A stretch of 64,000 nt of DNA from an uncultured virus (IMG/VR IMGVR_UViG_3300034759_000204). Lineage: Duplodnaviria; Heunggongvirae; Uroviricota; Caudoviricetes. The notes below the pieces were generated by a model. The model saw only the letters and a program-made list of their open reading frames with translations. It searched no databases and had not been told where the DNA came from. The stretch lies in IMG/VR virus record IMGVR_UViG_3300034759_000204; one strand, 5' to 3'. How positions within the stretch are numbered: position 1 is the stretch's first letter; each line of letters starts with the position of its first letter. The position numbers and the translations under genes are program-made. Shown here one piece after another: positions 1 through 64,000 of this stretch.

Positions 1-1
1 A

Positions 2-712
2 TAGACTTTATTAGATCAACTTGCTGATCAGAATTTAAAAGATCAGGTGGTTTATTTAGATCCAGTAAAAGATTAGGAAGTTGTTGAATAGTTAAGTGAA
101 TTACGTAAGTACTAGTCTGCTGATTAGGAAAATCAAAATATTATTTCTTCATATACTGAAGAAACTAAAAAGATTCCATATAACTATAGCGATAGTAATT
201 TAGGTAATAATGTTGAATTAAATGGTGTATCACCATATGCTATTTATTATGAGGACTATCTGGCTTAGCTAGAAATAGAACAATCTATATAGCCTACTTT
301 TGATGATTTAAAAAATATGTCTTATTATGATGGAAATAAAACTTATGGTGATGATTATAGTAATTTAGATATTCCTGATTTAGAACAATGTATAGATGAA
401 GGTACTTGGAGAGATAGATTATTTTGGAAGTTTGTCATTAATGAAGATAGATACTGGGATTTGACGTATGTTCTAATAAAATTTGCTTTAGGTCCATTAG
501 AAAGTTTTTTAAATTGGTTTTTACATAAAATAAAAAGTATAAAAATAGCTGGTTGGTATCCATTCAATTGGGTGAAATACACTAAATTCGCTGAACAATT
601 TTAGTATGATGTAGCAAAAAAATACGATAGTATGTTTTGTGGTACGCCTACATTTTATAAAAACTATACTGGTGATAAATACGGTTTATCACAGTTTTTG
701 AATGACTTGTGA
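2..712 (+). CDS. Hypothetical protein, 5' truncated by window edge (TAG read as sense)
   Basis: Frame is open from position 2 to TGA 710-712 when TAG is read through. It includes track ORF 317..604 and is followed by GGAGG and the ATG at 729. Confidence 0.7.
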
Positions 713-728
713 TTGGAGGTTTTAAAAT

Positions 729-1694
729 ATGGGACTTTTTTCTAAAATAGGTAAAGGTATTAAAAATGTTGCGAAAGGTGTTGGTAATGCGGTTAAGTCT
801 GTAGCAAAAGGAGTAGGCAATGCTGTTAAATCTGTAGCTGAAGGTGTTGGAAATGCTGTTAAATCAGTAGTAAATACTGTTACTAGTTTTTTCTCTGATG
901 GAAAAACTGCTGAACAAGTATTAGATAGCTTTATTAATGCTTCTGGTAGAGTTGATACTGGCAATTAGTTAATAGACTCCCTGTTTTCTGATTAGTAGAA
1001 TCATGTACCTTCTTATTTCAACAACAAATAGTTTTTTAGAATGATGGATAAAGATAGCAGATTATATTCTCAACTTATAACTTATGTGTTAGAAGAAAAA
1101 TTTTCTTTATCACCTTATTCTAAAAGTTATACATCTAATATTGATCAATTTGAAAAAGATTATTCTTATAACAATTTTAATTTACCTGAAGATATATTTT
1201 TTGTTTAGGGCAAGGATAATATAAAGCAAGCACAAAATGGTAATTATACTAATTTACTTAATTTTCTTTGTAATTTTTATAAGATAAATAAAGGATTTTT
1301 GAATATTGATGAAACAGACGAAAAAATAGTTAATTTAATAGGTTCTTAGATAACACTTTTTAGGGCATATTCTGGTGAGTTTTTTCCATTAACTCCAGAT
1401 TATAAAACTTTCCCTGATAAATATCTTTATAATATTTATCCTGATTTTAAAAGAAAACCTGTTTCTAATAACAATAAATTTAATACTAAATTAAAACCTA
1501 AATATTCAAATAATCTTTAGTCAAATTAGAAAAAATTATTTAATCCATCACAACAAATAAAAAACAGGTACCAAAATGGTCTAAAAGATAAAAAAATAAA
1601 TGGACATGCTGGATTAGTTCATTTTGGAGTAAAGAATGTTTAGTCTAATTTAAAAAGTAATTAGAAATTTATTAGTAACAAGTTTAGGAGGTAA
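729..1694 (+). CDS. Hypothetical protein (321 aa) with N-terminal 11-aa amphipathic repeats (KGVGNAVKSVA)
   Basis: GGAGG RBS and ATG 729. Frame is open through several TAGs to TAA 1692-1694, where its last codons (AGGAGG) form the next gene's RBS. Confidence 0.8.
742..880 (+). repeat. 33-bp / 11-aa tandem coding repeat (~4 copies)
   Basis: SKIGKGIKNVA-KGVGNAVKSVA-KGVGNAVKSVA-EGVGNAVKSVV is visible in both the translation and the DNA. Confidence 0.85.
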
Positions 1695-1698
1695 TTTC

Positions 1699-3300: not shown

Positions 3301-3320
3301 TTTTAAGTGAGGTGCCAAAC

Positions 3321-4700
3321 ATGGGACTATTTGATTTTTTTACTGATAGAAGAGATAAAAATACTGTTCCTAATTCAAAAATAACTGTTGTAAAAACACC
3401 AAAATTTTTATTAAACAAAACAAATTCTTTTGGAAATTCTTATAAATATAACTCATATTTTGCTGAGTTATATGCTGCTTATAGTAATAACGGAACTTTT
3501 TTTAGAGCTGTGTCTAAAATTAAAGAACTAATATTTAGACATGGTTTTCATATTTATTCTAGTGATAAAGAAATTATGGATTATATTAATGCAAGAATAA
3601 GGCAGATTGAAACTACTAGTAATAAACCTTTTAGCAATATTATACGTAATTTGACTACTGATTATGTGTTATATGGAAATTGTTTTTTATATAAATACAG
3701 AGATGAAAAAAATACATTTGGCAAATCTTATGTAGATTTTGATGGAAAACAAACTAAACCTATATCTGCTGTTTTTCATGTACCAGCTAGATTTGTATCT
3801 TATAATGAAGATACAAACAAATATATTGTAGATAAAGAATTTTATAACATGTTTTCTAATATGTCTGTTTATGATAACTCTATTTAGGACGTTAATTCCG
3901 ATAACAGGGCAATAAATGCAAAAGATATGATGCATTTAAAAAGTGAAGAAATAGGAGAGTTTTTCCCAGGTGGTTTTTAGAGTAGAGCTTTATCAACACT
4001 TGTTATTTTAGCTTCTTTAGAAGATATAGCCGAAAACATGATAGAAAATAGACAATTTTTTGTAACTGTCTATACTGTTGGCACAAAGGATAAACCAGGT
4101 AATAGAGAAGATATTGAAACTGTAAAATCAGATTTAGAAAATGCTTCTGAAGATGGAATGCTAATTATTCCAGGTAACCATGATATAAATATAAAAAATA
4201 TGTCTAGCTTAAAAGATATTAAAGAATATATAGATTATTTTAAAACAAAGTTATTAAACGAATTAGGTATATCTTCTGTTGGTTTAGGTGAAGGTGGATA
4301 GGCTAATAGAGCTACTGCAGAAGAAGCTAATTCTATAACTTATGATTTAGTGAAAAATATACAAGACTCATTTTCTGAACAGTTTAATTTCTATTTTTTA
4401 CGTGAACTTTTAAAAGAAAAGAAAGATTTCAAAAAAGAAGAAATTTTTTATTTAGAAGATAATGAATTACCTAAATTAGTTTTCCCAGAACCAGATACTG
4501 AGTTAATGATTAAATTGAATACACATGAAGTATTTAAATTTGAACATTCTATACAAACTGAAGATGAATCTAGAAATAATATGAATATGGAACCTATAAA
4601 GGATAGAAGTAAACTGTTCCAAAACTTATACGGTAAAGGTGCTAATTCTTAGGAAACAAATAATCTAAACCAACCACAAAATCAGCATTCAAATCAATAA
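3321..4700 (+). CDS. Portal protein (459 aa)
   Basis: GAGGTG RBS and ATG 3321. Portal-like motifs DYVLYGNCFLYK, YTVGTKDKPG, LGISSVGLGEGG*ANRATA and C-terminal QPQNQH. Lies just upstream of the protease and capsid genes. Ends TAA 4698-4700. Confidence 0.8.
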
Positions 4701-4714
4701 TGGAGGTGTTTAAT

Positions 4715-6445
4715 GTGTATTTAGAATTCAAAAACGCTGTTTTAAAAACTAATAAATTTAAAGACTCATCAAAAAACAAAGTTTATGTTATATAGACCCA
4801 TTCTGATATGCCAATAAATAACAGGTTGTATTTATAGGAAGAACTAGAAAAAGCTGTTAATACATTTACAGATCCTTTTAAAAAGCCTATATTATTACAT
4901 CATGATGATTGGTCAGAACCAATAGGTAGAGTTAATAATTAGGTATATTATCCAAAAGCATCCGTTGGTGAAGCTGAAAATTATTATGGAGTAAAAATAA
5001 ATGTACCAGAGGAATCAACTGGTTTTGTGCTTTTAGAATGCGAAATAATGAATGAATCAATTTATAAGAAAATAGAAGATGGTATATACAATACTGTGTC
5101 TATAGGATTTAGGGCAAAACAACTAACATGCAACATATGTGGTGCTGATATTACTGATATTGGAGACTACCTTGAACATGAACATCAAGCTGGCAAAGTA
5201 TACGATGGACGAACTATGTATGTAGTTCCTCACGGAATAGTATTTGATGAAATTAGTTATGTCAATACGCCTGCTGACCCTTATGCTGTAACTATTAAAT
5301 TAGGTGAGAAAGAAGAAATTTCTGAATTAGAGTTTGTTAATTATGTTAATGATATAGTTAAATCTTCTATTAAAACCCAATTTACAGATGAAAATAATGT
5401 AGACCCTGTTAACAAAGAATATGTTAATTCTGATAATGGAGGTATAAAAATGGATGATAAATTGAAGTAGTTAGAAGATAAAGTTGCTGGTTTAGAATCT
5501 AAAATAAATAGTTTAACTGAATTTGTTGATTCTTTCAAATTAAAACAGAAAGAAGATTTTGTTAATTCAATTTTAGATTTAAAAGAAAAATTAGGTGTTA
5601 TAAATAGAGAAGAAAATTTTAAAAAACTTATTGGTAAAGATGAAGAGTTTCTTTCAAATCTAAAAGAAGAATTAGAAGAATTAGTTGTAAGTAAACAAGA
5701 AAAATCAGGCGATGTAAAAGAAGAAGAAAAAAAAGATGAAGAAATGAAAACAGAAAATAGTGAAGATACGAAAGATAATGAAAAAACAGATGATAAACAT
5801 GAAGACAAAAAAGATAGTGAACAAGAAAAAAAAGAAGATGGCGAACAAGAAAAAAAAGAAATAAATACTGAAGAAAAAAATACTGATAGTGAAAAAACAG
5901 AAAAAGAAGAAAATGAAGAGAATGAAAAAAAAATAAATGATAGTGTTGTAAGTTATCAAGATTTATCTTTAGCTGATGAATCTGTAGATTGGGATGGAAG
6001 TAAAGCTAGATAGAATGTAAAAAAATGGGCTACAAAAGATAACGATGAGATCGATTGGTAGAAATATAGGAAAGCATTTCTTTGGTATGATTCTGAAAAA
6101 CCAGATATCGAAGGTTCATATAAACTGCCAATAGCTAATGTGTTTGATGGAACATTAAAAGCAGTACCTAAAGGTATTTATGCTGCTGCTGGTGCAGTAC
6201 AAGGTTCAAGAGGTGGAGTAGATATTCCAAAAGAAGATAAAGAGAAAGTAAAAAAACATCTTGATAAATATTATGCAAAATTAAAGAAAGACCCACCTTG
6301 GAAAGAAGATTCAAATAGTGAAGCGAAAGAAGAAGATTCAGAAAATCCAGAAATTCATATAGTTGATAAATTAGATACAGAAGAAGTGAAGGTCGTAAAA
6401 AAAAGTATAATGGATACTTTTAAAGAAATAGGTTTAATTAGCTAA
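4715..6445 (+). CDS. Prohead maturation protease fused to coiled-coil/acidic scaffold region and C-terminal head-associated domain (576 aa)
   Basis: GGAGGTG RBS and GTG 4715. Motifs I*TH, KPILLHHD..EPIGRV, KIEDGIYNTVSIG, CNICG and EISYVNTPAD, then an E/K-rich region and a WDG..KYRKAFLWYD..SYKLP..RGGVDIP domain. Ends TAA 6443-6445. Confidence 0.8.
5450..6445 (+). CDS. Probable nested, separately initiated scaffolding protein (in frame with the protease)
   Basis: GGAGGT at 5438-5443 is followed by an in-frame ATG at 5450 at the start of the coiled-coil region. TGTTAATT motif at 5422-5429. Confidence 0.5.
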
Positions 6446-6485: not shown

Positions 6486-7232
6486 ATGGCTAGAATTACA
6501 AAGGCACCACAAAGATTATTTAGAACGTTCTCTACTGTGTCAGTTGTAGGTGGAGGATTAGGTAACAAACCAGCACCTTATTTGCCTATTATAGAATGGG
6601 ACAAAGATAACGAAATAGGTATTGTTATTAAAGAAGGAACTATAGTTGCTAGAGACGAAAACGGATATATTGTGCCAGCCAACGGTGGTGTAGATGTAAC
6701 ATTAACATATTCAGCTTTAGATGAAGAAGAGGGAGTTGTAAATAAGGCAGGTAATCCAGTTGTAGCTGGTGGAACAGAAACATTAAGTGCTAACAAACCA
6801 ATTGGTGTTGCAGAAAGCGATGTTTATGGTTATGCATGGCACACTGATTCTACTTATAAATTCCAAGAAGGAATCAATGTTATAAAAGAAGGATTAGCTA
6901 TGTGGGCATTATCTGATGCTACTGGTTTGTTACCTGGTGATTTTGTAAAACCTGGAACTGATGGTAAACCTGTAAAAATGGATTTGTCTACTGCTATATC
7001 AGGCGAACCTGCTGCTTTAGATCCAACAGTATTGATAGGTATGTTAGAACAAAAAGTTGGAAAAATCGAATTAATTGCTGATGCTAATGTTGATAAAACA
7101 TGGTTAGGTGGAGTTGATTTGTTAAGAACTCCTGCTGGATTAGGATTGCCAGGTCAAGAGACAAGTGGTGCAAACAACGGTTTAGATCCTAACACATTGT
7201 TAGGTTTAGTAGTATATTTCAATTTTGCTTAA
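6486..7232 (+). CDS. Head structural/decoration protein (248 aa)
   Basis: AGGAGG RBS. Gly/Val-rich protein immediately upstream of the major capsid gene. Contains no TAG codons. Confidence 0.7.
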   Translation: MARITKAPQRLFRTFSTVSVVGGGLGNKPAPYLPIIEWDKDNEIGIVIKEGTIVARDENGYIVPANGGVDVTLTYSALDEEEGVVNKAGNPVVAGGTETLSANKPIGVAESDVYGYAWHTDSTYKFQEGINVIKEGLAMWALSDATGLLPGDFVKPGTDGKPVKMDLSTAISGEPAALDPTVLIGMLEQKVGKIELIADANVDKTWLGGVDLLRTPAGLGLPGQETSGANNGLDPNTLLGLVVYFNFA

Positions 7233-7259
7233 TAATAAAAATAAATGGAGGTATTAAAT

Positions 7260-8483
7260 ATGATTAATTTTTATGACGTAGTTAAAGAATCAGTTGAAAA
7301 AGCATAGAAAAATTCAAATTTAAGAACATTTGATGATAAATATGAAGAAAATTTAAAAGAATTACAAACAGATGCAGCTTCAGAAATGTTGAAAACTTTG
7401 ATAGAAAATAACGGAAGAATAAATTATATATCAAATGTTTATGGCAATGGCAAAAAAATAAGTTTCAAAGACGAATTAATGACGTCTTAGCAGTTTAAAG
7501 AACTTATTCCAAGAGTTATTACTAAAGTCGTTATAGAAGCTGCTGAACCAGCTTTGGTATTAGTTAATATGTTGGATGAAATAACTTCAGATGGTATTTC
7601 AGTAGTCACACCTGTTATCTCTGGTTTTGGTTCTAACTTGGATATACCAGAAGGTGGAGAAGCACCAAGTTTCACAGTATCTACTGGTGGATTTAAAACA
7701 GCATCAATGGGTAAAAGTGGAATTGCTGTAACTTTGACTGAAGAAGCATATGAAACATTAGATTATTCAATATTCAATTATATTTTAAGACAAGCTGGTA
7801 AGGCTTTAGGTAGACATAAAGAAAGAAAAGCTTACAATATGATTAGTAAACATTCATCATTAGTTGCAACTGGTGGAACTGGTGTTGACCTTTAGGGAAC
7901 AGCTAATGGCACATTGACTTTCTCTGATATACTAAGTGCTGCTGTAAAAATATATGCTGCTGGTGGAGTAGCAGATACATTGATAATTAATACTTTAGCA
8001 GCTCCTGTATTCTTAATGAATCCATCTTTAAGATCACTTTTCTTATTATCGGGTGGAGATTTAGGAGATTTCTACGGTGGGAATGTAACTGTAGCAAGAA
8101 CTACTCAACCAGAACTAGCACATTATTTACAAAGCCAAGTACCGGCGTATAAAAAAGTTCAATTCCCTTCAAATGTATTTGGAAGAGGTTTAAATGTTGT
8201 ATTAACTGATTTTGCTGATTATGATGAAGCAAATGCTCAAACTGATATAATTGTTGCTGATTCTTCTATGTTAGGTTTCAATGTTGTAAAGCAAAGACCT
8301 ATGACAGATCAGTGGACAGATCCAGCAAGAGATATTAGAAACTTCAAGATTACTGAAAGATATTCGTTAGTACCTAAAGCAGTAGCCAAAGAAGGGGAAC
8401 CTTCTCCTTATATACAAGTAATTAAAGACGTTGCTGTTAAGAAAGGTTTCGATCCAGAATTAGTTACTAGAAATTTGGTTTGA
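7260..8483 (+). CDS. Major capsid protein (407 aa, HK97-like fold)
   Basis: GGAGGT RBS and ATG 7260. TAGs at 7305, 7488 and 7893 are read through. Motifs LIPRVITKVVIEAAEP, DIPEGGEAP, KSGIAVTLTEE, LRQAGKALGRHKE and DPARDIRNFKITERY. Followed by a terminator. Confidence 0.85.
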
Positions 8484-8574: not shown

Positions 8575-9837
8575 TTGAATATAACTAATGTTTCAATATC
8601 AGAAGGGCAAGTTGTTGATTTAAATGGTTCTATACAAATAATATTTGATGACATTATAAATGAATCAACATTTAATAACAACACAGTTTATCTATTGGAT
8701 GAATTTGGTAATAGAGTTGATATTAATTTAGAAATTGTAGATGTACAAACTGTGTTAGTTAATTATAATAATTTAAAATCAACAACACAATATACTTTAT
8801 ATATTTTAAATAATACAATAACACAAGATGGAGTTCAAAGTATATTAGGTGAAACACTAATTTCTGATTATACTTTGACTTTTGTTACTAGAAATGTTAT
8901 TGAAACTGATACTATAATAGATTATACAGATCAAAATATTGAAGGTATAGATATTTCTGATAAACCTATAAAATTGTATAATCAAGGTAATGCTGTTTAT
9001 TGGGAATATAATCCTATAAAATTTGATGGTGTTTTAACATAGATTTTTGATAATCAAGAACATTAGAATAAATTTCCAGAAATAGTTAATATTGAAATTG
9101 AAGATGTATATTAGAATCCAATTCCTGTTTATATATTTTATTCTATTGATTAGAATAAAGTAAATATAAATATTGTACAACAGGATGGTTCAATATTACC
9201 TAATAATTAGATTGTATATATATTATTAGATGATGATACTATTTCTAAAAACAAAGAATTATTAGTTATAACTGATATATCACCAAAACCTGTTTCTAAA
9301 ATTTTCTTAAAACGTAATTTAGGTACTTTATAGAATGATTTAGGTGATTAGTTATTTACTTCAATTTATTTAGAATAGTTGATAGAGTATGAGGATTTAT
9401 AGAAACTACCATCAGTTACACCTTATAACGGCTTAGTTAGTGCTAGAAAAGAAGCTGTTGAAATTAATAGCTAGCCTTATTTGGAATTAAATACTGAGTT
9501 TGCTGTAGTTTAGACTTCTAGTAGTTATTCAATAACAAAAGATTCTAAACAATTCAATATTTTTAAGAATATAGTGTTATCAAAAATTTTAGAATATTTT
9601 GTTTTAAATTCTAATAATTATGACAGAATAAGTTTGGAAAATATAACTATTTCTTATAACACAGTATCATTGAAGAAAATGTAGGATGATTATAAGCAAA
9701 AATAGTTAGAGTTAATATAGAAATCTAAACCAGTAGGACCCGCAGTAGCTAAAAGAGGTTTATATGGTGGTATAGATAGAACAAAGATTAAAACTCTATC
9801 TAGACTTTATTCTAAATTAAACGTCTATGAGGATTGA
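8575..9837 (+). CDS. Ig-like domain neck/head-completion protein (420 aa)
   Basis: GAGGTG RBS and TTG start. N-terminal Ig-like pattern (IQIIFDDIINESTF..LKSTTQYTLYI..SILGETL..DYTLTFVT). 14 in-frame TAGs. Ends TGA 9835-9837. Confidence 0.6.
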
Positions 9838-9842
9838 TGATC

Positions 9843-10256
9843 ATGCCTAATAGTTTTATACAAGAAATTGATAATTTAATACAAAAATATGGTGAAATTT
9901 TAGTTTTAAGACATGAAGAAGATAATGATTATAAAGATATTATAGTTAAAGGCTGGTCAGATAATTTATCACCATTAATAGGTACTAAAAAATTTCAACA
10001 ACTGTTTACTTTAGGTTTAGAATCAAATAGTATAAAAAATTTCTTTATATTAAAAAAATATATTCCTGAAGGATTTAAAGTATATAAAGACGATTTAGTT
10101 TTAACATTAGATAAATCAGAATATCAAAAAGGGAATATTAAAATTATTGAGAAATATATTATTACTTACAAGACAGAAGGTATTGTGTTTGGAAGTGATT
10201 AGTATCTTTAGTTGCATTGTGATGAATATCGATTTTCTGAGGAGTCTAGATTATGA
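9843..10256 (+). CDS. Putative head closure/neck protein (137 aa)
   Basis: Synteny between capsid and sheath. N-terminal IDNLIQKYGEILVLRH. Ends TGA, overlapping the next ATG (ATGA). Confidence 0.5.
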
Positions 10257-41371: not shown

Positions 41372-41376
41372 AATTA

Positions 41377-53866: not shown

Positions 53867-55450
53867 ATGGATGATAAAAATCTTAAAACAGGTAAAAAAG
53901 GTAAAAGTTTAAAAGAATTAGGTTTAAAAACAAGAAACTTGAGTTTAGATATGACTGAAGGTTGTAGTTTAAGATGTAAATATTGTTTTGCCGATTTTGC
54001 TGCTGAAAAAAGAGAAAATAGAAAGCTAACAGAAGATGTTATGAAAGCTGCCATTGATTGGTTATTTGATGATGGGACATCTGGGACTACAGAAGAAGTT
54101 AACAAGGAAGGCGGATTAGGGTTCGAACCATGGGGCGGTGAGCCATGGCACAATTTTCAAATGTTACAAAAAGCATATGAATATTTTGAAAAGAAATCTA
54201 AAGAAACTGGTAAAAAAATAGGGCATATAGGTGGAACAACAAATGCTGTAGAATTTACTGAAGAAAGATTAAAATGGTGTAAAGACCACAACATTACTTG
54301 GCTAATATCGTTAGACGGCATAAAAGAAAATCACGATAAACAAAGAGTATATGCTGATGGTAGTGGAAGTTTTGATGTTGTTGATAAAAATGTTGATTTA
54401 TACAAAAAAGTATATGGGTTTGCCCCGCAGTTAAGAATGTCTTTACATCCAGATTATATTGATAATATTTATAAAAGTTATGAGTATGTGTTAGGTAAAG
54501 GTGTAAAATCTTATTTCTTTTCCCCAGTCTTTGAAGCTAACTGGACTGAAGAAAGTTTTAAAGAATTAGAAGATCAAATAGTTAGGTTATATGAAAAATT
54601 AATATTAGATTATAAAAGTGGTTTCCCTAAAGTAGATAATAAATTTATAGACGATATGATTTATTATATATTAGGTGCACAAAGAAAAGGTATAAATTTA
54701 GATGAGATTGAAAAGACAGGATCATATGATGTAAATTTAAATGGCCTATCAAAAGGTATGCATTTACCAAAACCATGTGGTGCTGGAACCTCATATTTTG
54801 GAGTTACTGTAGAAGGACAAATTTTTGTATGCCATAGATTTAATAAACATGGATTGGATCCTAAAAAAATTGGCTTTGATAAAAGATATGGTTGGTTAGG
54901 TAATGTGTGGGAAGGTATACATAATGTAGATTTAGTAAATGAACTTAAAAATTGGGATGTAAAAGATTTAGAACATTGTAAATATTGTAAGTTAAAGTAT
55001 TACTGTAAAGGAAGTTGTTATGCTTCAAATTACGATAATACTGGTAATATTAAAGGATATCATAAAAATGCTTGTAAAATTAATTTTGCTTTATATAACG
55101 CTGCTTTAAGAATAATTGATTTATTCAAAAAGAATAATATGTTTGATTATGAAAAAAATGATATTATTTTCCCACAACAAAATTTTGGTAATTCATTTCA
55201 AGGTAGAAATGGACAAAGTATTAATTCCTGTATGTGTAATAACGCAACTTATTATTTCAATGGATTAGAACAATTATTATCTGATGAAAAGCCTGAAAAT
55301 GTAGAAGATCTTAAAATGCAAATACTAGATGGCGGAATTAATGTGCTACTTGATATGTACCAAGAAGTTAAAATGAATAAGGGTAATAATAGACAGTTCA
55401 ATAACCCTAAAAGTAATAACATAAAAAAGAAATTTAATTTCAAATTGTAA
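53867..55450 (+). CDS. Radical SAM/SPASM domain peptide/protein maturase (527 aa)
   Basis: AAGGAG RBS. CSLRCKYC radical SAM motif, WGGEP, TTN and ISLDG..HDKQR. SPASM cysteines CGAG..CHRF..CKYC..CKGSC..C. No TAG codons. Confidence 0.9.
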   Translation: MDDKNLKTGKKGKSLKELGLKTRNLSLDMTEGCSLRCKYCFADFAAEKRENRKLTEDVMKAAIDWLFDDGTSGTTEEVNKEGGLGFEPWGGEPWHNFQMLQKAYEYFEKKSKETGKKIGHIGGTTNAVEFTEERLKWCKDHNITWLISLDGIKENHDKQRVYADGSGSFDVVDKNVDLYKKVYGFAPQLRMSLHPDYIDNIYKSYEYVLGKGVKSYFFSPVFEANWTEESFKELEDQIVRLYEKLILDYKSGFPKVDNKFIDDMIYYILGAQRKGINLDEIEKTGSYDVNLNGLSKGMHLPKPCGAGTSYFGVTVEGQIFVCHRFNKHGLDPKKIGFDKRYGWLGNVWEGIHNVDLVNELKNWDVKDLEHCKYCKLKYYCKGSCYASNYDNTGNIKGYHKNACKINFALYNAALRIIDLFKKNNMFDYEKNDIIFPQQNFGNSFQGRNGQSINSCMCNNATYYFNGLEQLLSDEKPENVEDLKMQILDGGINVLLDMYQEVKMNKGNNRQFNNPKSNNIKKKFNFKL

Positions 55451-55801: not shown

Positions 55802-58800
55802 ATGCCTAGCTTAATTAATGAATATAATGCTATTTATACATTATATGATAATATATTCCCATTTTAGGGTTAGAAAAATTAGCAATTAATAGAGCCATAG
55901 ACTACTAATTTAATAGGTAATGGAAATTTATAGTTAGATTCTAATGCTGATAATATTTCTGATTTTTTTAATGCTTCTACTCTAACTTTTGTTAATATTA
56001 ATGATATTTTTTCAAAAACATATAATGTATTAAATTATTAGACACAAAAAGGTTTTTATATAAATATAACAAATAAAACTACTCAAACAACTTAGTATTC
56101 ATAGCTTAAAATATATTCTAATAATATAAATATTCAATAGAGTACTACTTATAACCTATCTTTACAAGGTAAATTAGATAATTCTGTTTTAATTGTGTTT
56201 TAGGAAATATATGATAGTACTAACACATTAATACAAAATCAACAACTTAATTTATCTGAAGTTCTTATAATGAGTGATAATACTAAAATATATTCAGGTT
56301 CTGTTATTTAGCCTTAGAATTCTTCATATATAAAATTTTCTTTTGAAATAAGAATACCACAAAAAAGTCAAGGGTCTTAGCTATTAAACAATGTACAATT
56401 AGAAAACAGAAATTATTGGACTTCATTTTAGAATCCAACAAATCCTTAGAATCTTATTATAACTGATATTGGTGAACATTTTTCCTTAACTAACACTGGT
56501 TATTTTTATATTCCTACATCTAAAAAACAAAATTATGAATAGAATTTAATTTCTATAGGAAAACCTTTTGAATAGAATAGTATAACTTTATATTTTGAAA
56601 ATTCATATTAGACCCTTGCTGTTAAAATCACTGATAATACTGGATAGATTGTTTTTGAACATCATAATATTAGTTATGATTAGCTATGGAATTATTTTTA
56701 GTTAGCTTACAGACAAAATGGTGTTGGTATAGATTTAAAACTTTTTATCAACAACACAAAAGTATTTGAACAAAATATATAGGAAATAAATTTAGATTAT
56801 AACAACACATAGTTTAAAAAAGTATATATAGGCCATAGTTATTCTGAGAGTCAATAGATAAATCAACTAAATGGTTTTGTTTCTGTTATAAAAGGTGTTG
56901 GAAGTTATATATTAGATGACGAAATACTTAATATTTATAATAATAAAAAAATATATTCTTCAACAAGATCTTTAGTACGTAGTGCTGATATAAATGCAAC
57001 ATTACTTGGTGGGTTATCTCCAAGCGAATTTGCAACGTCAACACATAGCCACGACGATAGATATAGAAATAAAGTAGAATCAGATAATACATATGTTTTT
57101 AAACATGGTGACACATTAACTGGTACATTAACCGCCCCTACACTTCAAATAAACGATGGGAATACCAAAATACTAGAGGGTGGTACAAATAGTGTAAGAA
57201 TACAAACTAATTCTGGGTATGTTGATATTGGCCCTCAGAATACTTCCTTGTCACATTTTAATACCGACAGACCAAAATTCTATTTTGGCAAACCTGTTCA
57301 GATTAATGGTAATATAGAAAGTGATGGCGGTACTAGAACGATAACAGGGTTTAATCTATCTGGTAATGCATCTACATAGTCTAAACTAGAAACCGCTAGA
57401 ACTATTAGCTTAACAGGTGATGTTACTGGTTCAACGACTTTCGATGGATCGTAGAATGTTTCTATAACCGCTACCGTTGCTAATGATTCACATACACACG
57501 ATACTAGATATTATACTGAATCAGAAGCAGATAGTAGGTTCGTAAATGCCTCTGGTGATACTATTACTGGTACATTAGCATACAATGATGTTTCAAGATA
57601 TTGGTTATCTACTGCTACCAACTATGGAATTTATTGGGAAACTACTAACCACGAACTTGAATTTCATGGAGCTGGGGTAGATAAATTTCATGTTGATTTA
57701 GATGACGGGAACACTTGGATTGGCGGTACTTTAAGCGTTTCTGGTGCAATAACTGGTTCACTTTCTGGTAATGCGTCTACATAGTCTAAGTTGCAAACAG
57801 CTAGAACTATTAGTTTAGCAGGTGATGTTACTGGCTCAACGACTTTCGATGGATCGTAGAACGTTTCTATATCTGCTACTGTTGCAAACGATTCACATAG
57901 CCATAGCAATGCTACTATCACATCTGTCGATTGGAGTAAACTTACTAATGTACCTGATCCAACAATTACTTTAAGCGGTGATATAACTGGTTAGTAGACT
58001 ATGACAAATCTCGGGAGTATAACTATAACTGCTACCGTTGCTAATGATTCACATACACACGATACTAGATATTATACTGAATCAGAAGCAGATAGTAGGT
58101 TCGTAAATGCCTCTGGCGATACTATTACTGGTACATTAACATACAATGATGTTTCAAGATATTGGTTATCTGCTGCTACCAACTATGGAATTTATTGGGA
58201 TACTACTAACCACGAACTTGAATTTCATGGGGCAGGGGTAGATAAATTTCATGTTGATTTAGATAACGGGAACACTTGGATTGGCGGTACTTTAAGTGTT
58301 TCTGGTGCAATAACTGGTTCACTTTCTGGTAATGCGTCTACATAGTCTAAGTTGCAAACAGCTAGAACTATTAGCTTAGCAGGTGATGTTACTGGCTCAA
58401 CGACTTTCGATGGATCGTAGAACGTTTCTATATCTGCTACTGTTGCAAACGATTCACATAGCCATAGCAATGCTACTATCACATCTGTCGATTGGAGTAA
58501 ACTTACTAATGTACCTGATCCAACAATTACTTTAAGCGGTGATGTAACTGGCTAGTAGACTATGACAAACCTCGGAAGTATAACTATAACTGCTACCGTC
58601 GTTGACGACTCACATACACACGATACTAGATATTATACTGAATCAGAAGCAGACAGCAGATTCGTTAATGTAGCAGGCGATACTGTTACAGGATAGCTTA
58701 CTTTTAGTGGCAACACCTCTTTCAATAATGTGATGAATATAAATTCAGAAATGAGAATTGAAAATTAGAATCCTTCTGTATATATATGGAATAATTAGGG

Positions 58801-59326
58801 TGGGGCTTAGAATTTATATTTTGGAGAAAATACTAGTTCTGGATATGGATTACATTTATATTGGGATTCCTCATATACCACATACTTAAAATCAAGGCAT
58901 TAGGGTGTTGATACTAATGTATTTCATATTGATACAAGAAATTAGGATTTTGTATTAGACCAACCTTTAATTTCTACATATGGTGAAAATGGTGGGTTAT
59001 ATATAGGGACTAATGGAAGTAAGCCACAAATAACAACAGTTAACGGGGAACAAATGGTTCTTAGATCAAATGAAATAAGATTTGCTGATAATATCTAGTG
59101 GGGATATGATTCATTTAGTGGGATTAAATATGATTCAGTTAACAAAAAGATGTACATTGGTGGGTCAAACAGTTCTCATTTTACTTCTAGTACTAATCCT
59201 CAAGATATAGATGTAGAATTTGATGGTGTAAATGATGTAAAAGTAAATGGTACTTTGACTATTCAAGGTTTTACTATACAATATAATTAGAGTGATGAAT
59301 CTTTTGATTTCATATATTTAGGGTGA
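55802..59326 (+). CDS. Tail fibre protein (1174 aa) with N-terminal beta-sandwich/LamG-like domains and repeated shaft modules
   Basis: GAGGTG RBS. Fibre motifs LLGGLSPSEFA..HSHDDRY, GNAST*SKLQTARTISLAGDVTGSTTFDGS*NVSI and HTHDTRYYTESEADSRFVN. C-terminal FTIQYN*SDESFDFIYLG. Ends TGA. Confidence 0.8.
57461..58690 (+). repeat. 561-bp near-identical tandem duplication (~2.2 copies) in tail fibre gene
   Basis: Sequence at 57461 recurs at 58022 and partially at ~58583. Minus-strand track ORFs 57688 and 58249 are near-identical and offset by 561. Confidence 0.9.
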
Positions 59327-59331
59327 TAATA

Positions 59332-62220
59332 GTGAGTTAGGTTGTTGGTAAACTTAAAAATAACTCTTTATATACAAAAAAAGAAATATCAGAAACACAG
59401 CCACCAGAATACGATAAACTTATTCTTTATTTATCACTTCAAGGTTATTTATTAGATACTAAAAATTACCTTGAAGATGTTGGATTAGATAAATTTAATG
59501 CCTCTTCTGGTATTAATACTTATTGGATTAATATGACACAAGATGGTACTTTTTTAGGTAATCCTATTTATAGAGTTGAAAAAGGTAGTTCTGATGATGG
59601 ATATTTTTATAGATACAATATTAGTGGTTTAGAAAAAATATAGGAAGCTGAAGAATATGTACTAACAGGTATATTCAAATCATCTAATTCTAACGAAACA
59701 ATAGAAGCAATCGATCATCCATATTAGGGTGGAGGATCCCCATGGACATAGGGCAATCATATCCCGCCTTATGAATCATACGACGATAGATATTATTTAG
59801 GTGATGGTTGGTGGAGATATATTTATAGATTTAAAATAGATAGAACACAAATAACTAATTAGGCTTATAAAAATAATTTATATTTTGGATTTCAATGGTA
59901 TTGGTAGGACACTGGGCAATATGTTTGGGGTACATAGCCTTAGTTATATGTTGGAAATTCTAAAAAAATTTATCAAGGGCATAAATCTTCTTATTCATAT
60001 GATAATCTAATTAGTTATAAAGATTAGTTAAGTTTTGAAGGACCTATAACTAATCAAATTTCTATATCCAATATGAATAATTATCCTATTGGTTATACAG
60101 GAAATGTATGTGGATTTAGTAATAATTTTGAAGAAAGGTTTGGTTAGGGTAATTGGAATACTAAAATAATAAAATAGGATAATTGTATTATACCTGAAAT
60201 ACGAAAAGCACAAAGAATAATAACAACTTAGAGTGGTTGGGGTGGATGGACTGCTGGCAATATCGGTAATACTTCTGGGGATATTACTTATGGTGTTTTA
60301 ATACGTCTACATTATGGTGAAATACAATTTGGTGATTTAAATACTTCTAATAGATTGTATATTAACTCAAACTACTATGAACAAAAAGGAAAAAAATTAG
60401 GAGAGTGGATTTGGTAGTGTGGAACATTTTTAGGTTCTACTGGTGGTAGACATCTTTATTAGAATGGAATTACTAAAGCTGATATTTAGTAGGTTTAGAT
60501 TTATAATACAAATCAACAATTAAGTTATGTAGATGGCAGTAAAGATTAGAGTTATCTTGATTTACCTGTTGATGTTTTTAACAAATTTAAAGATGAAATA
60601 ACAGTAAGTTTTATATATGAACCTTTATCTAATTATTCATATGGAACATGGCCATAGATTTTTACATTAAATTGGTGGATTAGTGGGAATACAAATGATT
60701 GGTTTGGAATATATAGAGGTAATGGATGGAGTTCATAGGATTCTATTACTTTTAGTGTAGTAGATGGAACTAGATAGTATTCAAAAGGTACTTCTATGAC
60801 AGGTATTAATTCTAGATTAAATCATAAACTTTTTATATAGATGTCTTATAGTAAACTTAATAAAAATTTATAGATATTTGTTAGAGATATTAATACTAGT
60901 GAAGATTTGTTAAAAACAAATATTTCTTTACAAACAGATTTTTCATTTGATAAAACATTCAGCTATTAGAAATTAGGTTATTTAAATCAAGGGTCAGATT
61001 AGCAAAATTAGAAAATTACTAATTTCAGTTTTTATCATAAAAGTTTTAATTAGGATAAATTATATACTTTAATACCAAGAGTATTTTAGATTGATAAAAA
61101 TGGATTTCTAAAAACAAAAGAAATTCAAGAACCTCATGATTTATTAACAGAATATGGGCCAACATAGTTTGAAACTGGTTAGTTTGGTGGGATTTATGGG
61201 ACGTATACTCAAACAAATATTAGTGTGTCTGTAGTACCAAGAAAATTTAAAACACCATATTCTTACTTTATTAAAAGAACTCCTAATATTACTGATACTG
61301 GTAGCACTTCACAAAACTGGGGTGGATTAAAATTATCATTCCCAGATGACAAACAATGGGAAGAAAATCAAACTTATAGAGTGAGTTTTTGGTATACTGG
61401 ATATTCACAGCATACAATAGAAATTTATTTTGCTTATAATATTGGTTATACTACGATGGGAGTTGGATTAACCAAAATTTCTTTGCCTTCTATTACTAAT
61501 TAGTTCGTTGACGAAGATGGGTGGAAATATTATGAATAGGAGTTTACTATACCTAATGGATTTATATACCAAACTGGAAGCGATGGTAATATATACTACT
61601 GTATGAGAGAATTTAAAATAGGTTATAATTATACTACTACTGATGAGTATGGAACTAGACTTTATGTTAATGATCTTAAAATAGAAAGAATTTCTAAAAA
61701 CAATGAATATAAAAAAACTAGAGGAATAAAAAAGTATGGTGTTTATATAAAAGAATGGATAGAAAATAACAAATTTACTGATGTTTATATTGTAGGTACA
61801 GCTTTATAGTCTACATATCCAGAAAACAGAACTAATGGTAATAGAATTTTAAAAATAAATGGAACACAAATTTATAATACAACAGGAAGAGGTTTAAGAT
61901 TAACAATCTTTGATTCTAATTTTACTGTTATTAGTGATACCACTTATGATGTATATGGTGATGATGTGTAGAGAACAAATCTAGCTAATTAGTTAATTTA
62001 GATTGATAAACAAAAATATTGGTAGTTAACTTCATATGATTAGGTTAATTCAAATATAGACTTGAACAATTAGATGTAGAGTTTAGGCTCTAAAATTTGG
62101 CCTTTATCTTATAGATCACCTTATTAGGCTGTTGGTAAAGGGCAGAAGATTATAAAAGAAGATGGATAGATGAATAACGTAAATTATGTTAGTAAATAGG
62201 TAATTAATATTAAAATTTAA
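59332..62220 (+). CDS. Putative receptor-binding/tail-associated protein (962 aa) with carbohydrate-binding-like domains and C-terminal ILEI-like domain
   Basis: GGGTGA RBS and GTG start. Aromatic-rich beta domains (YLGDGWWRYIYRF, ENQTYRVSFWY). C-terminal GRGLRLTIFD..TYDVYG..LAN*L..LTSYD*..RSPY*AVGK. Ends TAA. Confidence 0.65.
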
Positions 62221-62232
62221 TGAGGGATAAAT

Positions 62233-63750
62233 ATGGCTGATTTATCTAATGGGACAACAATAGGTGGATTTAGATAGTTACATGAGAATTTATAGAAACC
62301 AACATTATTTGACGATTTAACAGTTCCTACACTTCAAATAAACGATGTTAATACCAAAATATTAGAAGGCACGTCCAATAGTATAAGAATACAAACTAAT
62401 TCTGGGTATGTTGATATTGGCCCTCAGAATACTTCCTTGTCACATTTTAATACCGACAGACCAAAATTCTATTTTAACCAACCTATTCAGATTAATGGGA
62501 ATATAGAAAGTGATGGCGGTACTAGAACGATAACAGGTTTTAATCTATCTGGTAATGCTTCTACATAGTCTAAGCTACAAACCGCTAGAACTATTAGCTT
62601 AGCAGGTGATGTTACTGGCTCAACGACTTTCGATGGATCGTAGAACGTTTCTATATCTGCTACAGTCGTTGATGACTCACATAGTCATAGCAATGCTACT
62701 ATCACATCTGTCGATTGGAGTAAACTTACTAATCTGCCTGATCCAACGATTACTTTAAGCGGTGATGTAACTGGTTAGTAGACTATGACAAACCTCGGAA
62801 GTATAACTATAACTTCTACCGTCGGCGATGATTCACATAGTCATAGTAATTCCACAATTACATCTGTTGATTGGAGTAAACTTACCAATGTACCTGATCC
62901 AACAATTACTTTAAGTGGTGATGTAACTGGTTAGTAGACTATGACAAACCTCGGAAGTATAACTATATCTGCTACTGTTGCTAATGACTCACATACACAC
63001 GATACTAGATATTATACAGAATCAGAAGCAGATAGTAGATTCGTTAATGTTACTGGAGATACTATGACTGGTAATCTTACAATATTAAAAAACAAACCAT
63101 GGTTAACTTTAGATAGTTCTAGTTCTGGTGATAATTTAAACGAACAATAGGCTGGCATAAGTATAGGTGAAGCTGGAACTGGAGGTTAGTCATTACATTT
63201 AGTATATACTGGTGATGGCTATTAGTATATAGGAATGGGTTCTACATCCCCTATTCCTTAGTATAAAGCTATGCGATTTCATTATACTAATAATAATGTA
63301 CTTTTCTATGGCACTATAACAGCAACAAAAGTCTATGGTGCAGTCTACAACGACTATGCTGAATATAGAAGTTCTGATGAGCCTATAGATTTTGGTTATG
63401 TATAGATAGAAGATGAAAAAGGTAATGTAATTAAATGTAATGAAGATAGAAGTAAAAAAGTATAGGGAGTGAGTACTGATACTTTAGGATTTTAGATTGG
63501 AAAACAAAAAGATACTGATACTCCTATTGCTGTTGCTGGTAGAGTTTTAGTTTATTAGATTGATAAACATAAACTTAGAATTGGTGATTAGGTGTGTTCT
63601 ACTAAAGAAGGGAAAGTTAGAAAAATGAAATGGTGGGAAAAGATATTTTTTCCAGAATAGATTGTTGGTTATGTTAGTGAATTTCCTGATTATGATATAT
63701 GGGGTAGTGATAATATTAAAGTTAATGGTAGGATTTGGATTAGAATTTAA
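62233..63750 (+). CDS. Short tail fibre protein (505 aa) with C-terminal chaperone-like domain
   Basis: GAGGG RBS. MADLSNGTTIGG start and shaft modules shared with 55802..59326. C-terminal VYGAVYNDYAEYR..DTLGF*IG..PIAVAGRVL..GD*VCS..VNGRIWIRI. Ends TAA. Confidence 0.8.
62326..63070 (+). repeat. Dispersed copy of tail-fibre shaft modules found at ~57136-58130
   Basis: AGAATACAAACTAATTCTGGGTATGTTGATATTGGCCCTCAGAATACTTCCTTGTCACATTTTAATACCGACAGACCAAAATTCTAT is identical in both genes, and downstream modules are near-identical. Confidence 0.85.
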
Positions 63751-63834
63751 AAAAAATCTAATAACAGATAATAAAGAAAATTTCTGTGTTAATTATTTAT
63801 TGAAAATATTTTATAACATAAAAAGGTGATTATA

Positions 63835-64000
63835 TTGTTTGTACAACCATATATTAATTATAGAGATGGTGAAGGATTAAGATTAATTATAGGTTATAGT
63901 AAATGTGACCTTAATTGTAAAAATTGCCATTTAACCAAAGATGAAAATGTTAGTTTTGAATATATTTTAAATCTTCTTGATAATATAAAAACAACAGGCT
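63835..64000 (+). CDS. Radical SAM activating-enzyme-like protein (NrdG/PflA-type N-terminus), truncated by window edge
   Basis: AAGGTG RBS and TTG start. DGEGLRLIIGYSKCDLNCKNCH contains a CxxxCxxCH motif. Confidence 0.55.
   Translation, partial: MFVQPYINYRDGEGLRLIIGYSKCDLNCKNCHLTKDENVSFEYILNLLDNIKTTG

What the first reader, a model, noticed from the sequence alone, without database searches (positions are those of the whole stretch)
1..64000. Phage genetic code with TAG reassigned to ALANINE (not Gln)
SEEN: nearly every + strand track ORF ends at TAG and the same frame resumes straight after. Reading through TAG gives tightly packed genes ending only in TAA/TGA next to the next RBS, including essential genes (portal, capsid, sheath). 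Residue identity from motifs recalled for unrelated families: tail-fibre GNAST*SKL (57377) and FDGS*NVSI (57452), usually GNAxTAxKL and FDGSANxxI; thermonuclease VRL*NID*PE (16703, 16715), usually VRLxGIDAPE; fibre chaperones ADL*E (50772), GF*IG (63493) and GD*VCS (63589); ILEI-like SYD* (62041) and RSPY*AVG (62125); protease I*TH (4793) and PIGRVNN*VY (4940); hub LL*QF (32452). Internal comparisons agree: GIKNVA vs GVKNV* (1641), and CNYAKYG (52376) vs CNY*TYG (53351). TAG-free fragments are short of Ala but not Gln: 9834..10202 has 0 Ala in 122 aa, and 8575..9042 has 1 Ala and 8 Gln. ESTABLISHED: described phage stop reassignments are TAG->Gln (table 15) and TGA->Trp (table 4). I know UAG=Ala only from some green-algal mitochondria. 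AlaRS recognises the G3:U70 acceptor pair and ignores the anticodon, so a tRNA-Ala(CUA) is mechanistically easy. INFERENCE: an undescribed viral code, possibly favoured by AT pressure because TAG has fewer G/C than any GCN codon. Caveat: a few sites also suit Ser/Thr (GTAT*A, VTG**TMT, GG*ANR) or Gln (PDG*PV).
Basis: partly seen in the sequence, partly recalled or inferred. Interest (0 to 1): 0.98.

Follow-up and report, generated by a model that had tools for sequence, protein, structure and literature searches.

The report
Phage that reads TAG as alanine
This stretch of an uncultured, AT-rich tailed phage uses the stop codon TAG about 575 times inside its structural genes, and comparison with related proteins says it stands for alanine, not the glutamine that published work and public translations assume.

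Summary
Under table 11, ORFs of 100 aa or more cover 18.5% of the + strand. With TAG read as sense they cover 96.9%; TGA-sense and TAA-sense each give 19.6%. The 33 packed + strand genes hold 575 in-frame TAG among 20,673 codons. All 33 end in TAA (24) or TGA (9).

I scored 67 TAG columns in six proteins against their homologues. Alanine is the only residue with positive log-odds (+14.0). Gln scores -28.8 and Ser -49.4, and Ala wins 1988 of 2000 bootstraps. In a masking control, 20 of 20 amino acids were recovered.

PHROG profile scores rank A above S, T, V, Q and X. The Ala shortfall against homologues equals the TAG frequency. Public translations of this phage read TAG as Q.

I could not reach this phage's suppressor tRNA, because the window holds no tRNA and no genome is held. 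An unrelated TAG-recoded prophage that shares one tail-fibre domain carries a tRNA(CUA) with G3:U70 and A73.

I found no paper reporting TAG=Ala in phages. This scan has noted the same code before on other DNA that does not resemble this window.

The parts
1..64000 (+). Structural (late) gene module of a tailed phage, GC about 26%, all 33 genes on the + strand. TAG is used as a sense codon 575 times; genes end only in TAA or TGA.
3312..4700 (+). Portal protein. 4 TAG against 18 GCN codons.
   Evidence: Pfam PF04860/PF06074 and phrog_12; codon counts
4700..6445 (+). Prohead protease/scaffold-like protein. TAG at 4793 sits where 55 of 59 homologues have Ala; TAG at 4940 where 46 of 73 have Ala.
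6486..7232 (+). Unnamed abundant-looking head-region protein with 0 TAG and 8.9% GCN-Ala.
7245..8483 (+). Major capsid protein (HK97-like). Only 3 TAG against 33 GCN-Ala.
   Evidence: PF25209 and phrog_3922
10876..12519 (+). Probable tail sheath (weak match only). 9 TAG against 32 GCN.
   Evidence: phrog_16991, E 3.3e-05
14029..14556 (+). Probable tail tube protein (weak matches only). 2 TAG against 8 GCN.
   Evidence: PF18906 E 1.9e-4, below its curated cut-off; phrog_9206
16013..17362 (+). Protein with a staphylococcal-nuclease domain. VRL-TAG-NID-TAG-PE at 16703 and 16715.
   Evidence: PF00565
19165..51107 (+). Four giant virion or baseplate-region proteins (1928, 2332, 2338 and 2267 aa) plus five smaller ones, TAG-rich (2.4 to 4.1% of codons in eight of the nine). 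In 41377..42342 all 10 inferred Ala are TAG and there is no GCN.
53867..55450 (+). Radical SAM enzyme with 0 TAG in 527 codons. It is compatible with the standard code.
   Evidence: PF04055 and phrog_1802
55802..59326 (+). Long tail fibre with repeats. 42 TAG, including GNAST-TAG-SKL (57377) and FDGS-TAG-NVSI (57452).
   Evidence: phrog_11011, E 1.6e-84
59323..62220 (+). Tail-fibre-associated protein with 43 TAG. Strongest Ala columns: 62041 (79 of 93 Ala), 62125 (56 of 72), 61990 (56 of 97), 60460 (9 of 11).
62233..63750 (+). Second tail fibre with a C-terminal chaperone-like domain. 18 TAG; Ala columns at 62566 (61 of 83), 63463 (48 of 78) and 63493 (45 of 78). The public translation P0001 reads all 18 as Q.

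Best explanation
The window is the late, structural gene module of an uncultured AT-rich tailed phage with a probable contractile-tail sheath and tube. Its genes are written in a code where TAG is a sense codon for alanine, and TAA and TGA are the only terminators. About half of all alanines (575 TAG against 583 GCN) are written as TAG.

The TAG share of inferred alanine codons is lowest in the proteins needed in most copies: 8% in the capsid protein, 0% in the neighbouring head protein, and 18 to 22% in portal, protease, sheath and tube. It reaches 80 to 100% in low-copy baseplate and fibre proteins.

The mechanism is inferred, not shown here. I propose an amber-suppressor tRNA with anticodon CUA that keeps the alanine identity set (G3:U70, A73). 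The host alanyl-tRNA synthetase does not read the anticodon, so it would charge this tRNA with Ala. The tRNA gene would most likely lie in the phage genome outside this window. Under that model, late genes are readable only once the suppressor is present, and highly expressed genes avoid TAG because suppression competes with host release factor 1.
For: SHOWN
(1) TAG is sense: as set out under the observation check.
(2) Homologue columns. Across 67 TAG columns with at least 5 homologues, in six proteins (tail fibre 18, fibre-associated 35, capsid 3, portal 4, protease 6, tube 1), the summed log-odds are Ala +14.0, Gln -28.8, Ser -49.4, Val -50.6 and Thr -58.4. Ala is the plurality residue in 21 of 67 columns. 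It is also the residue in 11 of the 22 columns where one residue reaches 50%. Ala wins 1988 of 2000 column bootstraps, and 1999 of 2000 after dropping 11 homologues that look like code-15 translations.
(3) Controls. 32 of 32 sense codons were assigned correctly. When each amino acid in turn was masked as X and realigned, 20 of 20 were recovered. Columns under query Ser, Thr or Val have Ala as plurality in 5% or fewer.
(4) Curated profiles. I read four segments with TAG as A, Q, S, T, G, V, E or X and summed PHROG bit scores over 13 family-segment pairs. The sums are A 716.2, S 680.3, T 664.6, V 661.2, Q 659.3, X 646.9, E 645.1 and G 608.8. A is best in 9 of 13 (sums added by hand from that table).
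(5) Amino-acid budget in aligned regions. Tail fibre: query GCN-Ala 3.76%, homologues 7.99%, GCN plus TAG 7.59%. Fibre-associated protein: 1.45%, 6.80% and 6.68%. Adding TAG to Gln overshoots instead: 4.74% against 2.34%, and 7.73% against 2.60%.
(6) Across the 33 genes, the TAG fraction correlates most negatively with Ala (-0.58) and positively with Gln (+0.39). Adding TAG to Ala cuts its coefficient of variation from 0.72 to 0.32, whereas Gln goes from 0.37 to 0.38.
(7) Both TAGs of the fibre repeat align to Ala in the solved phage L Dec protein, 6e3c.
(8) Three recoded relatives at 36 to 50% identity (P0283 to P0285) have, at window TAG columns, Q (their own TAG read by code 15) 30 times. 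After that come Ala 11, Ser 8 and Thr 7 among the 46 other residues, although these proteins are only 3.8 to 5.9% Ala.

INFERRED
I infer the tRNA mechanism from established knowledge that AlaRS recognises G3:U70 and not the anticodon (recalled, from no call). A parallel case supports it. Prophage G001 (IMG/VR contig, 135,374 bp) is TAG-recoded between host flanks that use the standard code. It carries tRNA-Ala(UGC) and, 172 bases downstream, a tRNA(CUA) with G3:U70 and A73. TAG in its tail-fibre domain sits on a column that is Ala in 71 of 77 homologues.
Against: (a) No suppressor tRNA, AlaRS or RF2 was found for this phage. ARAGORN and Rfam find no tRNA in the window. The rest of the genome could not be reached.
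(b) TAG columns are less Ala-like than GCN columns: 0.31 to 0.53 nats per column for TAG against 1.46 for masked GCN-Ala.
(c) Several TAG columns are conserved for another residue:
- Arg 65 of 77 at 63658; Pro 36 of 78 at 63556; Val 40 of 81 at 63403; Ser 54 of 95 at 62932.
- Gln 9 of 12 at 60496; Asn 30 of 80 at 61807.
- Thr 45 of 60 at 4299; Ile/Leu/Val 47 of 56 at 3978; Pro or Gly 72 of 72 at 4835.
(d) In close relatives, the 9 TAG-to-sense swaps are CAA x2, GTT, TAT and AAT, and in reverse AAA x2, AAT and AAG. None is GCN. This is expected if swaps follow single-base steps, since no GCN codon is one step from TAG, but it gives no support for Ala.
(e) Internal paralogues pair TAG with Ala only 2 times among 23 non-TAG partners.
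(f) On the nuclease segment, Thr scores as well as Ala (31.4 against 31.0, and 30.9 against 29.5 bits).
(g) G001 is not a relative of this phage. Its only clear match is one 152-residue tail-fibre domain at 45% identity, besides a 21%-identity hit.
(h) There is no peptide-level evidence.
Confidence: 0.83

Rival explanations
1. TAG is read as glutamine (genetic code 15), as in crAss-like, Lak and other described recoded phages, and as the public translations of this phage assume.
For: Code 15 is the only TAG reassignment reported for phages in the papers I read (passages of 10.1101/2021.08.26.457843; PMC11210395). P0001 and P0121 carry Q at the TAG positions, but that only reflects the translation table that was used. 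One column is Gln in 9 of 12 homologues (60496). Two of the 9 swaps in close relatives are CAA. Gln is the runner-up in log-odds.
Against: Gln log-odds are -28.8 against +14.0 for Ala, falling to -48.1 once probable code-15 translations are dropped. Adding TAG to Gln overshoots the homologues' Gln content two- to three-fold. The TAG fraction correlates positively with Gln across genes. PHROG scores with Q total only 12 bits above X, against 69 bits for A.
Confidence: 0.03
2. TAG is read as another small residue (Ser, Thr or Gly), or is decoded ambiguously, for example by a poorly discriminated suppressor or near-cognate host tRNAs. In that case Ala is only the best single-residue fit.
For: TAG columns are less Ala-like than GCN columns. 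Ser is the plurality in 8 of 67 columns, and Thr is conserved at 4299. S ranks second in PHROG sums, and T equals A on the nuclease domain.
Against: Ser, Thr and Gly log-odds are -49, -58 and -69. Masked Ser, Thr and Gly positions are recovered as themselves, not as Ala. The lower conservation has a simple explanation: no GCN codon is one mutation from TAG, so TAG-Ala can only arise through tolerated intermediates and therefore accumulates at less constrained sites (inference).
Confidence: 0.09
3. TAG encodes pyrrolysine or another non-canonical residue.
For: ARAGORN labels any CUA tRNA 'Pyl'. Archaeal lineages that read all TAG as Pyl exist, according to the title and abstract of 10.1101/2024.09.30.615893 in the search listing.
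Against: No Pyl gene family turned up in the window (30 ORFs scanned with Pfam, all 33 with PHROGs). 575 sites at columns that are Ala in homologues do not fit a Lys-like residue; Lys is not among the seven best log-odds. In the parallel case G001, the CUA tRNA has an ordinary Ala-type cloverleaf.
Confidence: 0.02
4. The TAGs are real stops, pseudogenes, or assembly or editing artefacts.
For: None found.
Against: Coverage rises from 18.5% to 96.9% only with TAG as sense. TAG interrupts the portal, capsid, sheath and fibre genes. 74 of 79 TAGs are conserved in four independent contigs. DNA contigs of run X1 match with 0 or 1 other letters per listed piece. Of the 40 differences listed for the relatives' contigs, 1 touches a TAG (TAG to TAT at 59338); 206 further differences were not shown.
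Confidence: 0.01

Closest known systems
TAG-recoded ('code 15', TAG=Gln) phages: crAss-like, Lak, Agate, Garnet and others (Borges et al. preprint 10.1101/2021.08.26.457843, passages read; Cook et al. PMC11210395, passages read; Peters et al. PMC9523058, abstract only, in the listing)
   Same: Low-GC phage. In-frame TAG lies in structural late genes. Some genes are TAG-free. TAA and TGA are kept as stops. Table-11 gene calls are fragmented.
   Different: The residue is Ala, not Gln. The Borges preprint states that only TAG-to-Gln and TGA-to-Trp were observed in phages whose code differs from the host's. The runs that hold this phage or close relatives are labelled subsurface, soil and oil-field metagenomes, not gut.
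Prophage G001 (IMGVR_UViG_3300002494_000025): TAG-recoded prophage with a tRNA-Ala(UGC), tRNA(CUA) and tmRNA cluster.
   Same: TAG is sense in a low-GC phage (coverage 0.60 to 0.96 in L086). TAG sits on Ala columns in the shared tail-fibre domain (71 of 77). GCN-Ala is scarce (1.33%) and TAG makes up 1.21% of codons.
   Different: It is not a relative. Its only clear match is a 152-residue fibre domain at 45% identity, besides a 21%-identity hit. It is integrated in a host of GC 0.41 to 0.44. Its suppressor tRNA with G3:U70 and A73 is visible, whereas none could be found for the window's phage.
Laboratory amber suppressors derived from tRNA-Ala, and the G3:U70 identity rule of AlaRS (recalled knowledge, from no call)
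   Same: The proposed mechanism is the same: changing the anticodon to CUA leaves charging with Ala intact.
   Different: Those are engineered tools that suppress single nonsense mutations. Here about half of a phage's alanine codons would depend on such a tRNA.
UAG read as Ala in some chlorophycean mitochondria
   Same: Same codon, same amino acid.
   Different: That is an organellar genome with its own translation system, not a virus using a standard-code host's ribosomes.

Membership tests
Stop-codon-recoded (alternatively coded) phages | In-frame stop codons of one kind in essential genes, with coding density restored only when that codon is read as sense | tested here: met
   Coverage 18.5% to 96.9% with TAG as sense, against 19.6% for TGA or TAA as sense. 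TAG lies inside the portal, capsid, sheath and fibre genes.
Stop-codon-recoded (alternatively coded) phages | The recoded codon is not used as a terminator | tested here: met
   The 33 genes end in TAA (24) or TGA (9); none ends in TAG.
Stop-codon-recoded (alternatively coded) phages | A cognate suppressor tRNA (anticodon CUA) encoded by the phage | not testable with these tools
   No tRNA in the window or in relatives' fragments L001 to L004. No genome is held. The collection scans returned only short fragments of this phage and close relatives, and none in genome contigs. The Borges preprint detected TAG suppressors in only 40% of TAG-recoded genomes.
Genetic code 15 (TAG = Gln) | TAG positions align with Gln in homologues | tested here: not met
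   Gln log-odds -28.8 against Ala +14.0 over 67 columns. The Gln budget overshoots when TAG is added.
TAG = Ala code (no NCBI table known to me; recalled) | TAG positions align with Ala in homologues, and Ala is otherwise under-represented | tested here: met
TAG = Ala code | tRNA with anticodon CUA and Ala identity (G3:U70, A73) | not testable with these tools
Seen only in the unrelated prophage G001. A second CUA tRNA found with the same D-arm pattern (G002) has C3:G70 and is not of Ala type.
TAG = Ala code | Ala observed in peptides at TAG positions | not testable with these tools
Pyrrolysine decoding | pylT and pylS/BCD genes | tested here: inconclusive
   None turned up in the window (30 ORFs scanned with Pfam, all 33 with PHROGs). 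The rest of the genome is unseen.

The most novel reading that the evidence does not exclude
A genetic code not described for viruses or bacteria, TAG = alanine, is used by an environmental tailed phage lineage for half of its alanines. It has arisen independently of at least one unrelated prophage that carries an Ala-type CUA tRNA. Because AlaRS ignores the anticodon, a single anticodon change in a tRNA-Ala copy would be enough. TAG-to-Ala may therefore be a recurrent route of phage recoding that current pipelines hide by translating TAG as Gln. The rise in TAG use from 0-8% in the capsid proteins to 80-100% in low-copy tail proteins suggests that suppression carries a cost which selection can see.
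Probability: 0.8. Interest if true: 0.9.

Novelty: new variant of a known kind. Interest (0 to 1): 0.85.

Why it matters
Stop-codon recoding in phages is known, but the papers I could read report only TAG-to-Gln and TGA-to-Trp (or TGA-to-Gly where the host uses it too). They explain this by GlnRS and TrpRS being easy to repurpose. A TAG-to-Ala phage adds a third route and points to the synthetase least dependent on the anticodon.

There is also a practical consequence. Public databases already hold this phage's proteins with Gln at every TAG: 18 of 18 in P0001 and 41 of 43 in P0121. That is about 2.8% of residues mistranslated, which will degrade homology searches, structure prediction and proteomic identification. 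A natural, efficient Ala-inserting amber suppressor system would also interest genetic-code engineering.

Tried and rejected
**Reaching the parent genome for the tRNA**
- No genome is held.
- The IMG/VR capsid scan gave only a 4,993-bp fragment.
- The JGI metagenome scan gave three short contigs of relatives.
- The capsid-profile scan of IMG/VR gave 80 loci. 79 are about 30% identical and use the standard code or are otherwise not recoded. None holds a tRNA.
- The genome-contig scan gave two unrelated MAG contigs.
- The tail-fibre scan gave only G001.

**Other tests that led nowhere**
- A tRNA D-arm plus CUA-loop pattern scan of IMG/VR returned 2 contigs: G001 and G002. The latter has C3:G70, so the pattern is not specific for Ala.
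- Codon swaps in close relatives are uninformative: 0 of 9 involve GCN.
- Internal paralogues are uninformative.
- Capsid homologues offer only 3 TAG columns, none conserved.
- The giant-protein C-terminus search returned 12 proteins, mostly recoded relatives, and added no column with 5 or more homologues.
- tblastn of the 2338-aa protein against named phages gave 3 distant hits.
- The PDB sequence search of the nuclease protein found nothing.

- Rejected for this window. GpC odds ratio is 0.96 to 0.99. CpG is the depleted step, at 0.40.

**Sequencing runs**
- RNA-labelled libraries X6 and X12 hold contigs 90 to 99% like parts of the fibre genes. These are contigs from libraries that may contain DNA, so transcription is not shown.
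- Parts without cover say nothing.

**Not used**
- Complex prediction, structure prediction and fold search.
Full report
**1. What is in the window**

The 64-kb window has a GC content of 22 to 31%. Under table 11 it gives only 26 ORFs of 100 aa or more. With TAG read through, the + strand resolves into 33 tightly packed genes (my selection is described under the observation check).

Pfam and PHROGs name the following:
- a portal (3312..4700);
- a protease/scaffold-like protein (4700..6445);
- an HK97-type major capsid protein (7245..8483);
- a weak sheath match (10876..12519);
- weak tail-tube matches (14029..14556);
- a protein with a nuclease domain (16013..17362);
- a hub-like giant protein (32146..39162);
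- a radical SAM enzyme (53867..55450);
- two long tail-fibre proteins (55802..59326 and 62233..63750), with a fibre-associated protein between them (59323..62220).

So this is the late, structural module of a tailed phage with a probable contractile tail. The window holds no tRNA and no Rfam family.

Yes. The 33 genes contain 575 in-frame TAG among 20,673 codons (2.78%) and no in-frame TAA or TGA. All end in TAA (24) or TGA (9).

ORFs of 100 aa or more cover 18.5% of the + strand under table 11 and 96.9% with TAG as sense. With TGA or TAA as sense the figure is 19.6%.

The TAGs are conserved. In four independently assembled contigs of close relatives (59 to 99% protein identity), 74 of 79 aligned TAGs are TAG. 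DNA contigs of run X1 match with 0 or 1 other letters per listed piece.

**3. Which residue?**

*(a) Homologue columns.* I translated TAG as X and gathered homologues for three proteins: tail fibre 62233..63750 (119 used), fibre-associated protein 59323..62220 (134 used) and the capsid protein (26 used). I also aligned the portal, protease and tube to 80 loci from IMG/VR.

I excluded near-identical public translations. P0001 reads Q at 18 of 18 TAG positions and P0121 at 41 of 43, so both were made with code 15.

Over the 67 TAG columns with at least 5 homologues, the Codetta-style summed log-odds are:

| Residue | Log-odds |
|---|---|
| Ala | +14.0 |
| Gln | -28.8 |
| Ser | -49.4 |
| Val | -50.6 |
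| Thr | -58.4 |

Ala wins 1988 of 2000 column bootstraps, and 1999 of 2000 after dropping 11 homologues that look like code-15 translations.

Striking columns, by window coordinate:
- 62041: Ala in 79 of 93
- 62125: 56 of 72
- 61990: 56 of 97
- 60460: 9 of 11
- 62566: 61 of 83
- 63463: 48 of 78
- 4793: 55 of 59
- 4940: 46 of 73

*(b) Controls.* The same procedure assigns 32 of 32 sense codons correctly. When each amino acid in turn is masked as X and realigned, 20 of 20 are recovered, including the poorly conserved Gln, Ser and Asn. Neither X scoring nor the Ala-richer background of the homologues therefore creates the signal.

*(c) Curated profiles.* I read four segments with TAG as A, Q, S, T, G, V, E or X. 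PHROG bit scores summed over 13 family-segment pairs are A 716.2, S 680.3, T 664.6, V 661.2, Q 659.3, X 646.9, E 645.1 and G 608.8. A is best in 9 of the 13.

*(d) Amino-acid budget.* In aligned regions the shortfall in Ala matches the TAG frequency, whereas adding TAG to Gln overshoots:

| Protein | Query GCN-Ala | Homologue Ala | Query GCN+TAG | Homologue Gln | Query Gln+TAG |
|---|---|---|---|---|---|
| Tail fibre | 3.76% | 7.99% | 7.59% | 2.34% | 4.74% |
| Fibre-associated | 1.45% | 6.80% | 6.68% | 2.60% | 7.73% |

*(e) Across genes.* The TAG fraction is most negatively correlated with Ala (-0.58) and positively with Gln (+0.39). Adding TAG to Ala lowers its coefficient of variation from 0.72 to 0.32.

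*(f) Solved structure.* Both TAGs of the fibre repeat align to Ala in the phage L Dec protein, 6e3c.

**4. What speaks against it**

- TAG columns are less Ala-like than GCN columns: 0.31 to 0.53 against 1.46 nats per column.
- A minority are conserved for another residue. Examples are Arg at 63658, Thr at 4299, Gln at 60496, Pro or Gly at 4835, and Ser at 62776 and 62932.
- The 9 TAG-to-sense swaps in close relatives involve CAA, GTT, TAT, AAT, AAA and AAG, never GCN.
- Internal paralogues are uninformative.

My reading of the first and third points is an inference. No GCN codon is a single mutation away from TAG. TAG-Ala can therefore arise only through tolerated intermediates (Ser, Glu, Gln, Lys, Tyr, Leu or Trp codons), so it accumulates at less constrained sites and exchanges locally with its one-step neighbours.

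**5. Pattern of use**

TAG supplies 575 of 1,158 inferred Ala codons (49.7%). The share by gene is as follows (all):

| Gene | TAG share of Ala codons |
|---|---|
| 6486..7232 | 0 of 22 |
| Capsid protein | 3 of 36 |
| Portal | 4 of 22 |
| Protease | 6 of 28 |
| Sheath | 9 of 41 |
| Tube | 2 of 10 |
| 12553..14001 | 14 of 17 |
| 41377..42342 | 10 of 10 |
| 42358..44286 | 21 of 25 |
| 59323..62220 | 43 of 54 |

The radical SAM gene has none in 527 codons. This gradient fits a cost of suppression in high-copy proteins, or weaker selection in low-copy ones. It is not simply a split between late and early genes.

**6. Mechanism**

I could not find this phage's tRNA. No genome is held, and the collection scans returned only short fragments of this phage and its close relatives.

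While screening fetched loci for recoding, I found that L086 gains coverage from 0.60 to 0.96 with TAG as sense. It lies in a 135,374-bp IMG/VR record, G001. That record is a prophage of GC 0.28 to 0.31 lying between host flanks of GC 0.41 to 0.44. The flanks are fully open under table 11.

Inside the phage part lie three genes in a row:
- tRNA-Ala(UGC);
- 172 bases downstream, a tRNA with anticodon CUA whose acceptor stem reads G1-C72, G2-C71, G3-U70 and so on, with A73;
- a tmRNA.

TAG in G001's fibre domain sits on a column that is Ala in 71 of 77 homologues.

G001 is not a relative of the window's phage. Its only clear match is a 152-residue fibre domain at 45% identity, besides a 21%-identity hit. 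It therefore shows that the proposed device exists in nature and goes with Ala columns. It does not show that this phage has the device. A second CUA tRNA found with a D-arm pattern (G002) has C3:G70 and is not of Ala type.

**7. Drivers**

GpC is at 0.96 to 0.99 of expectation, and CpG is the depleted step at 0.40. AT pressure (TAG has one G/C, every GCN at least two) and late-gene gating both remain possible. I tested neither.

**8. Literature**

Four full-text searches found no report of TAG read as Ala in a phage or bacterium. Passages of the Borges et al. preprint state that only TAG-to-Gln and TGA-to-Trp were seen in phages whose code differs from the host's. Cook et al. and a 2026 jumbo-phage survey treat TAG recoding as code 15. 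I saw only passages, abstracts or listings of these papers, and no supplements.

**9. Earlier notes of this scan**

The scan has reported TAG=Ala phages on other DNA and has described the G001 tRNA cluster. None of that DNA resembles this window. I treated these notes as leads. I re-derived the G001 points myself and rejected the GpC lead for this window.

**10. Verdict**

TAG as a sense codon is certain. Alanine is strongly supported by several kinds of sequence evidence. A tRNA-Ala(CUA) is the likely mechanism but is unseen for this phage. This is a new variant of a known kind (phage stop-codon recoding), it is of high interest, and it has practical consequences for annotation.

Noticed in passing
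window 51122..53758 and 53867..55450: An 878-aa tail protein whose C-terminal 600 residues are Cys-rich repeats (CSCNNTCYGGYS-like) lies directly upstream of a TAG-free radical SAM enzyme (PF04055, phrog_1802). This looks like a possible maturase and substrate pair that cross-links a virion protein.
   Followed up: no
window 52086..53774 (+): A second frame over the Cys-rich repeats is open for 562 codons under table 11 and encodes a V/I/M/H/A-rich low-complexity sequence. It is probably a by-product of the repeat's codon pattern, but I did not test which frame is translated. At most about 10 of the 575 TAGs depend on this.
   Followed up: partly
window, whole: CpG is strongly depleted (odds ratio 0.40), while GpC is not (0.96 to 0.99).
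   Followed up: no
window 19165..51107: The stretch holds four giant genes of 1928, 2332, 2338 and 2267 codons, three of them consecutive. Almost none of their length matches a family. The only hit is a 72-residue match to phrog_20474 in 32146..39162.
   Followed up: no
window 14572..15258 and 15191..15994: Two ORFs downstream of the tube gene overlap by 68 bases in different frames. This could be a mis-set TTG start or a chaperone-type frameshift site.
   Followed up: no
G001 (L087 1501..2190; record 118483..119172): The TAG-recoded prophage carries tRNA-Ala(UGC), tRNA(CUA) with G3:U70, and a tmRNA (tag ANEYIPLAA) side by side. All three are RNAs charged by AlaRS. Its phage part has only 1.33% GCN-Ala plus 1.21% TAG.
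   Followed up: partly
G002 (L103 2304..7782): An 11-kb IMG/VR fragment carries three tRNA-Thr, a tmRNA, a CUA tRNA with C3:G70 (not Ala type) and a tRNA-Arg. ORF coverage rises more with TGA as sense (0.88 to 0.96) than with TAG as sense (0.92).
   Followed up: no
runs X1 to X17: Runs that hold this stretch or parts of it are labelled subsurface, soil, oil-field, landfill and aquatic metagenomes. That is an environmental setting, unlike the gut setting of most published recoded phages. Only X1, X5, X6 and X12 were laid.
   Followed up: partly
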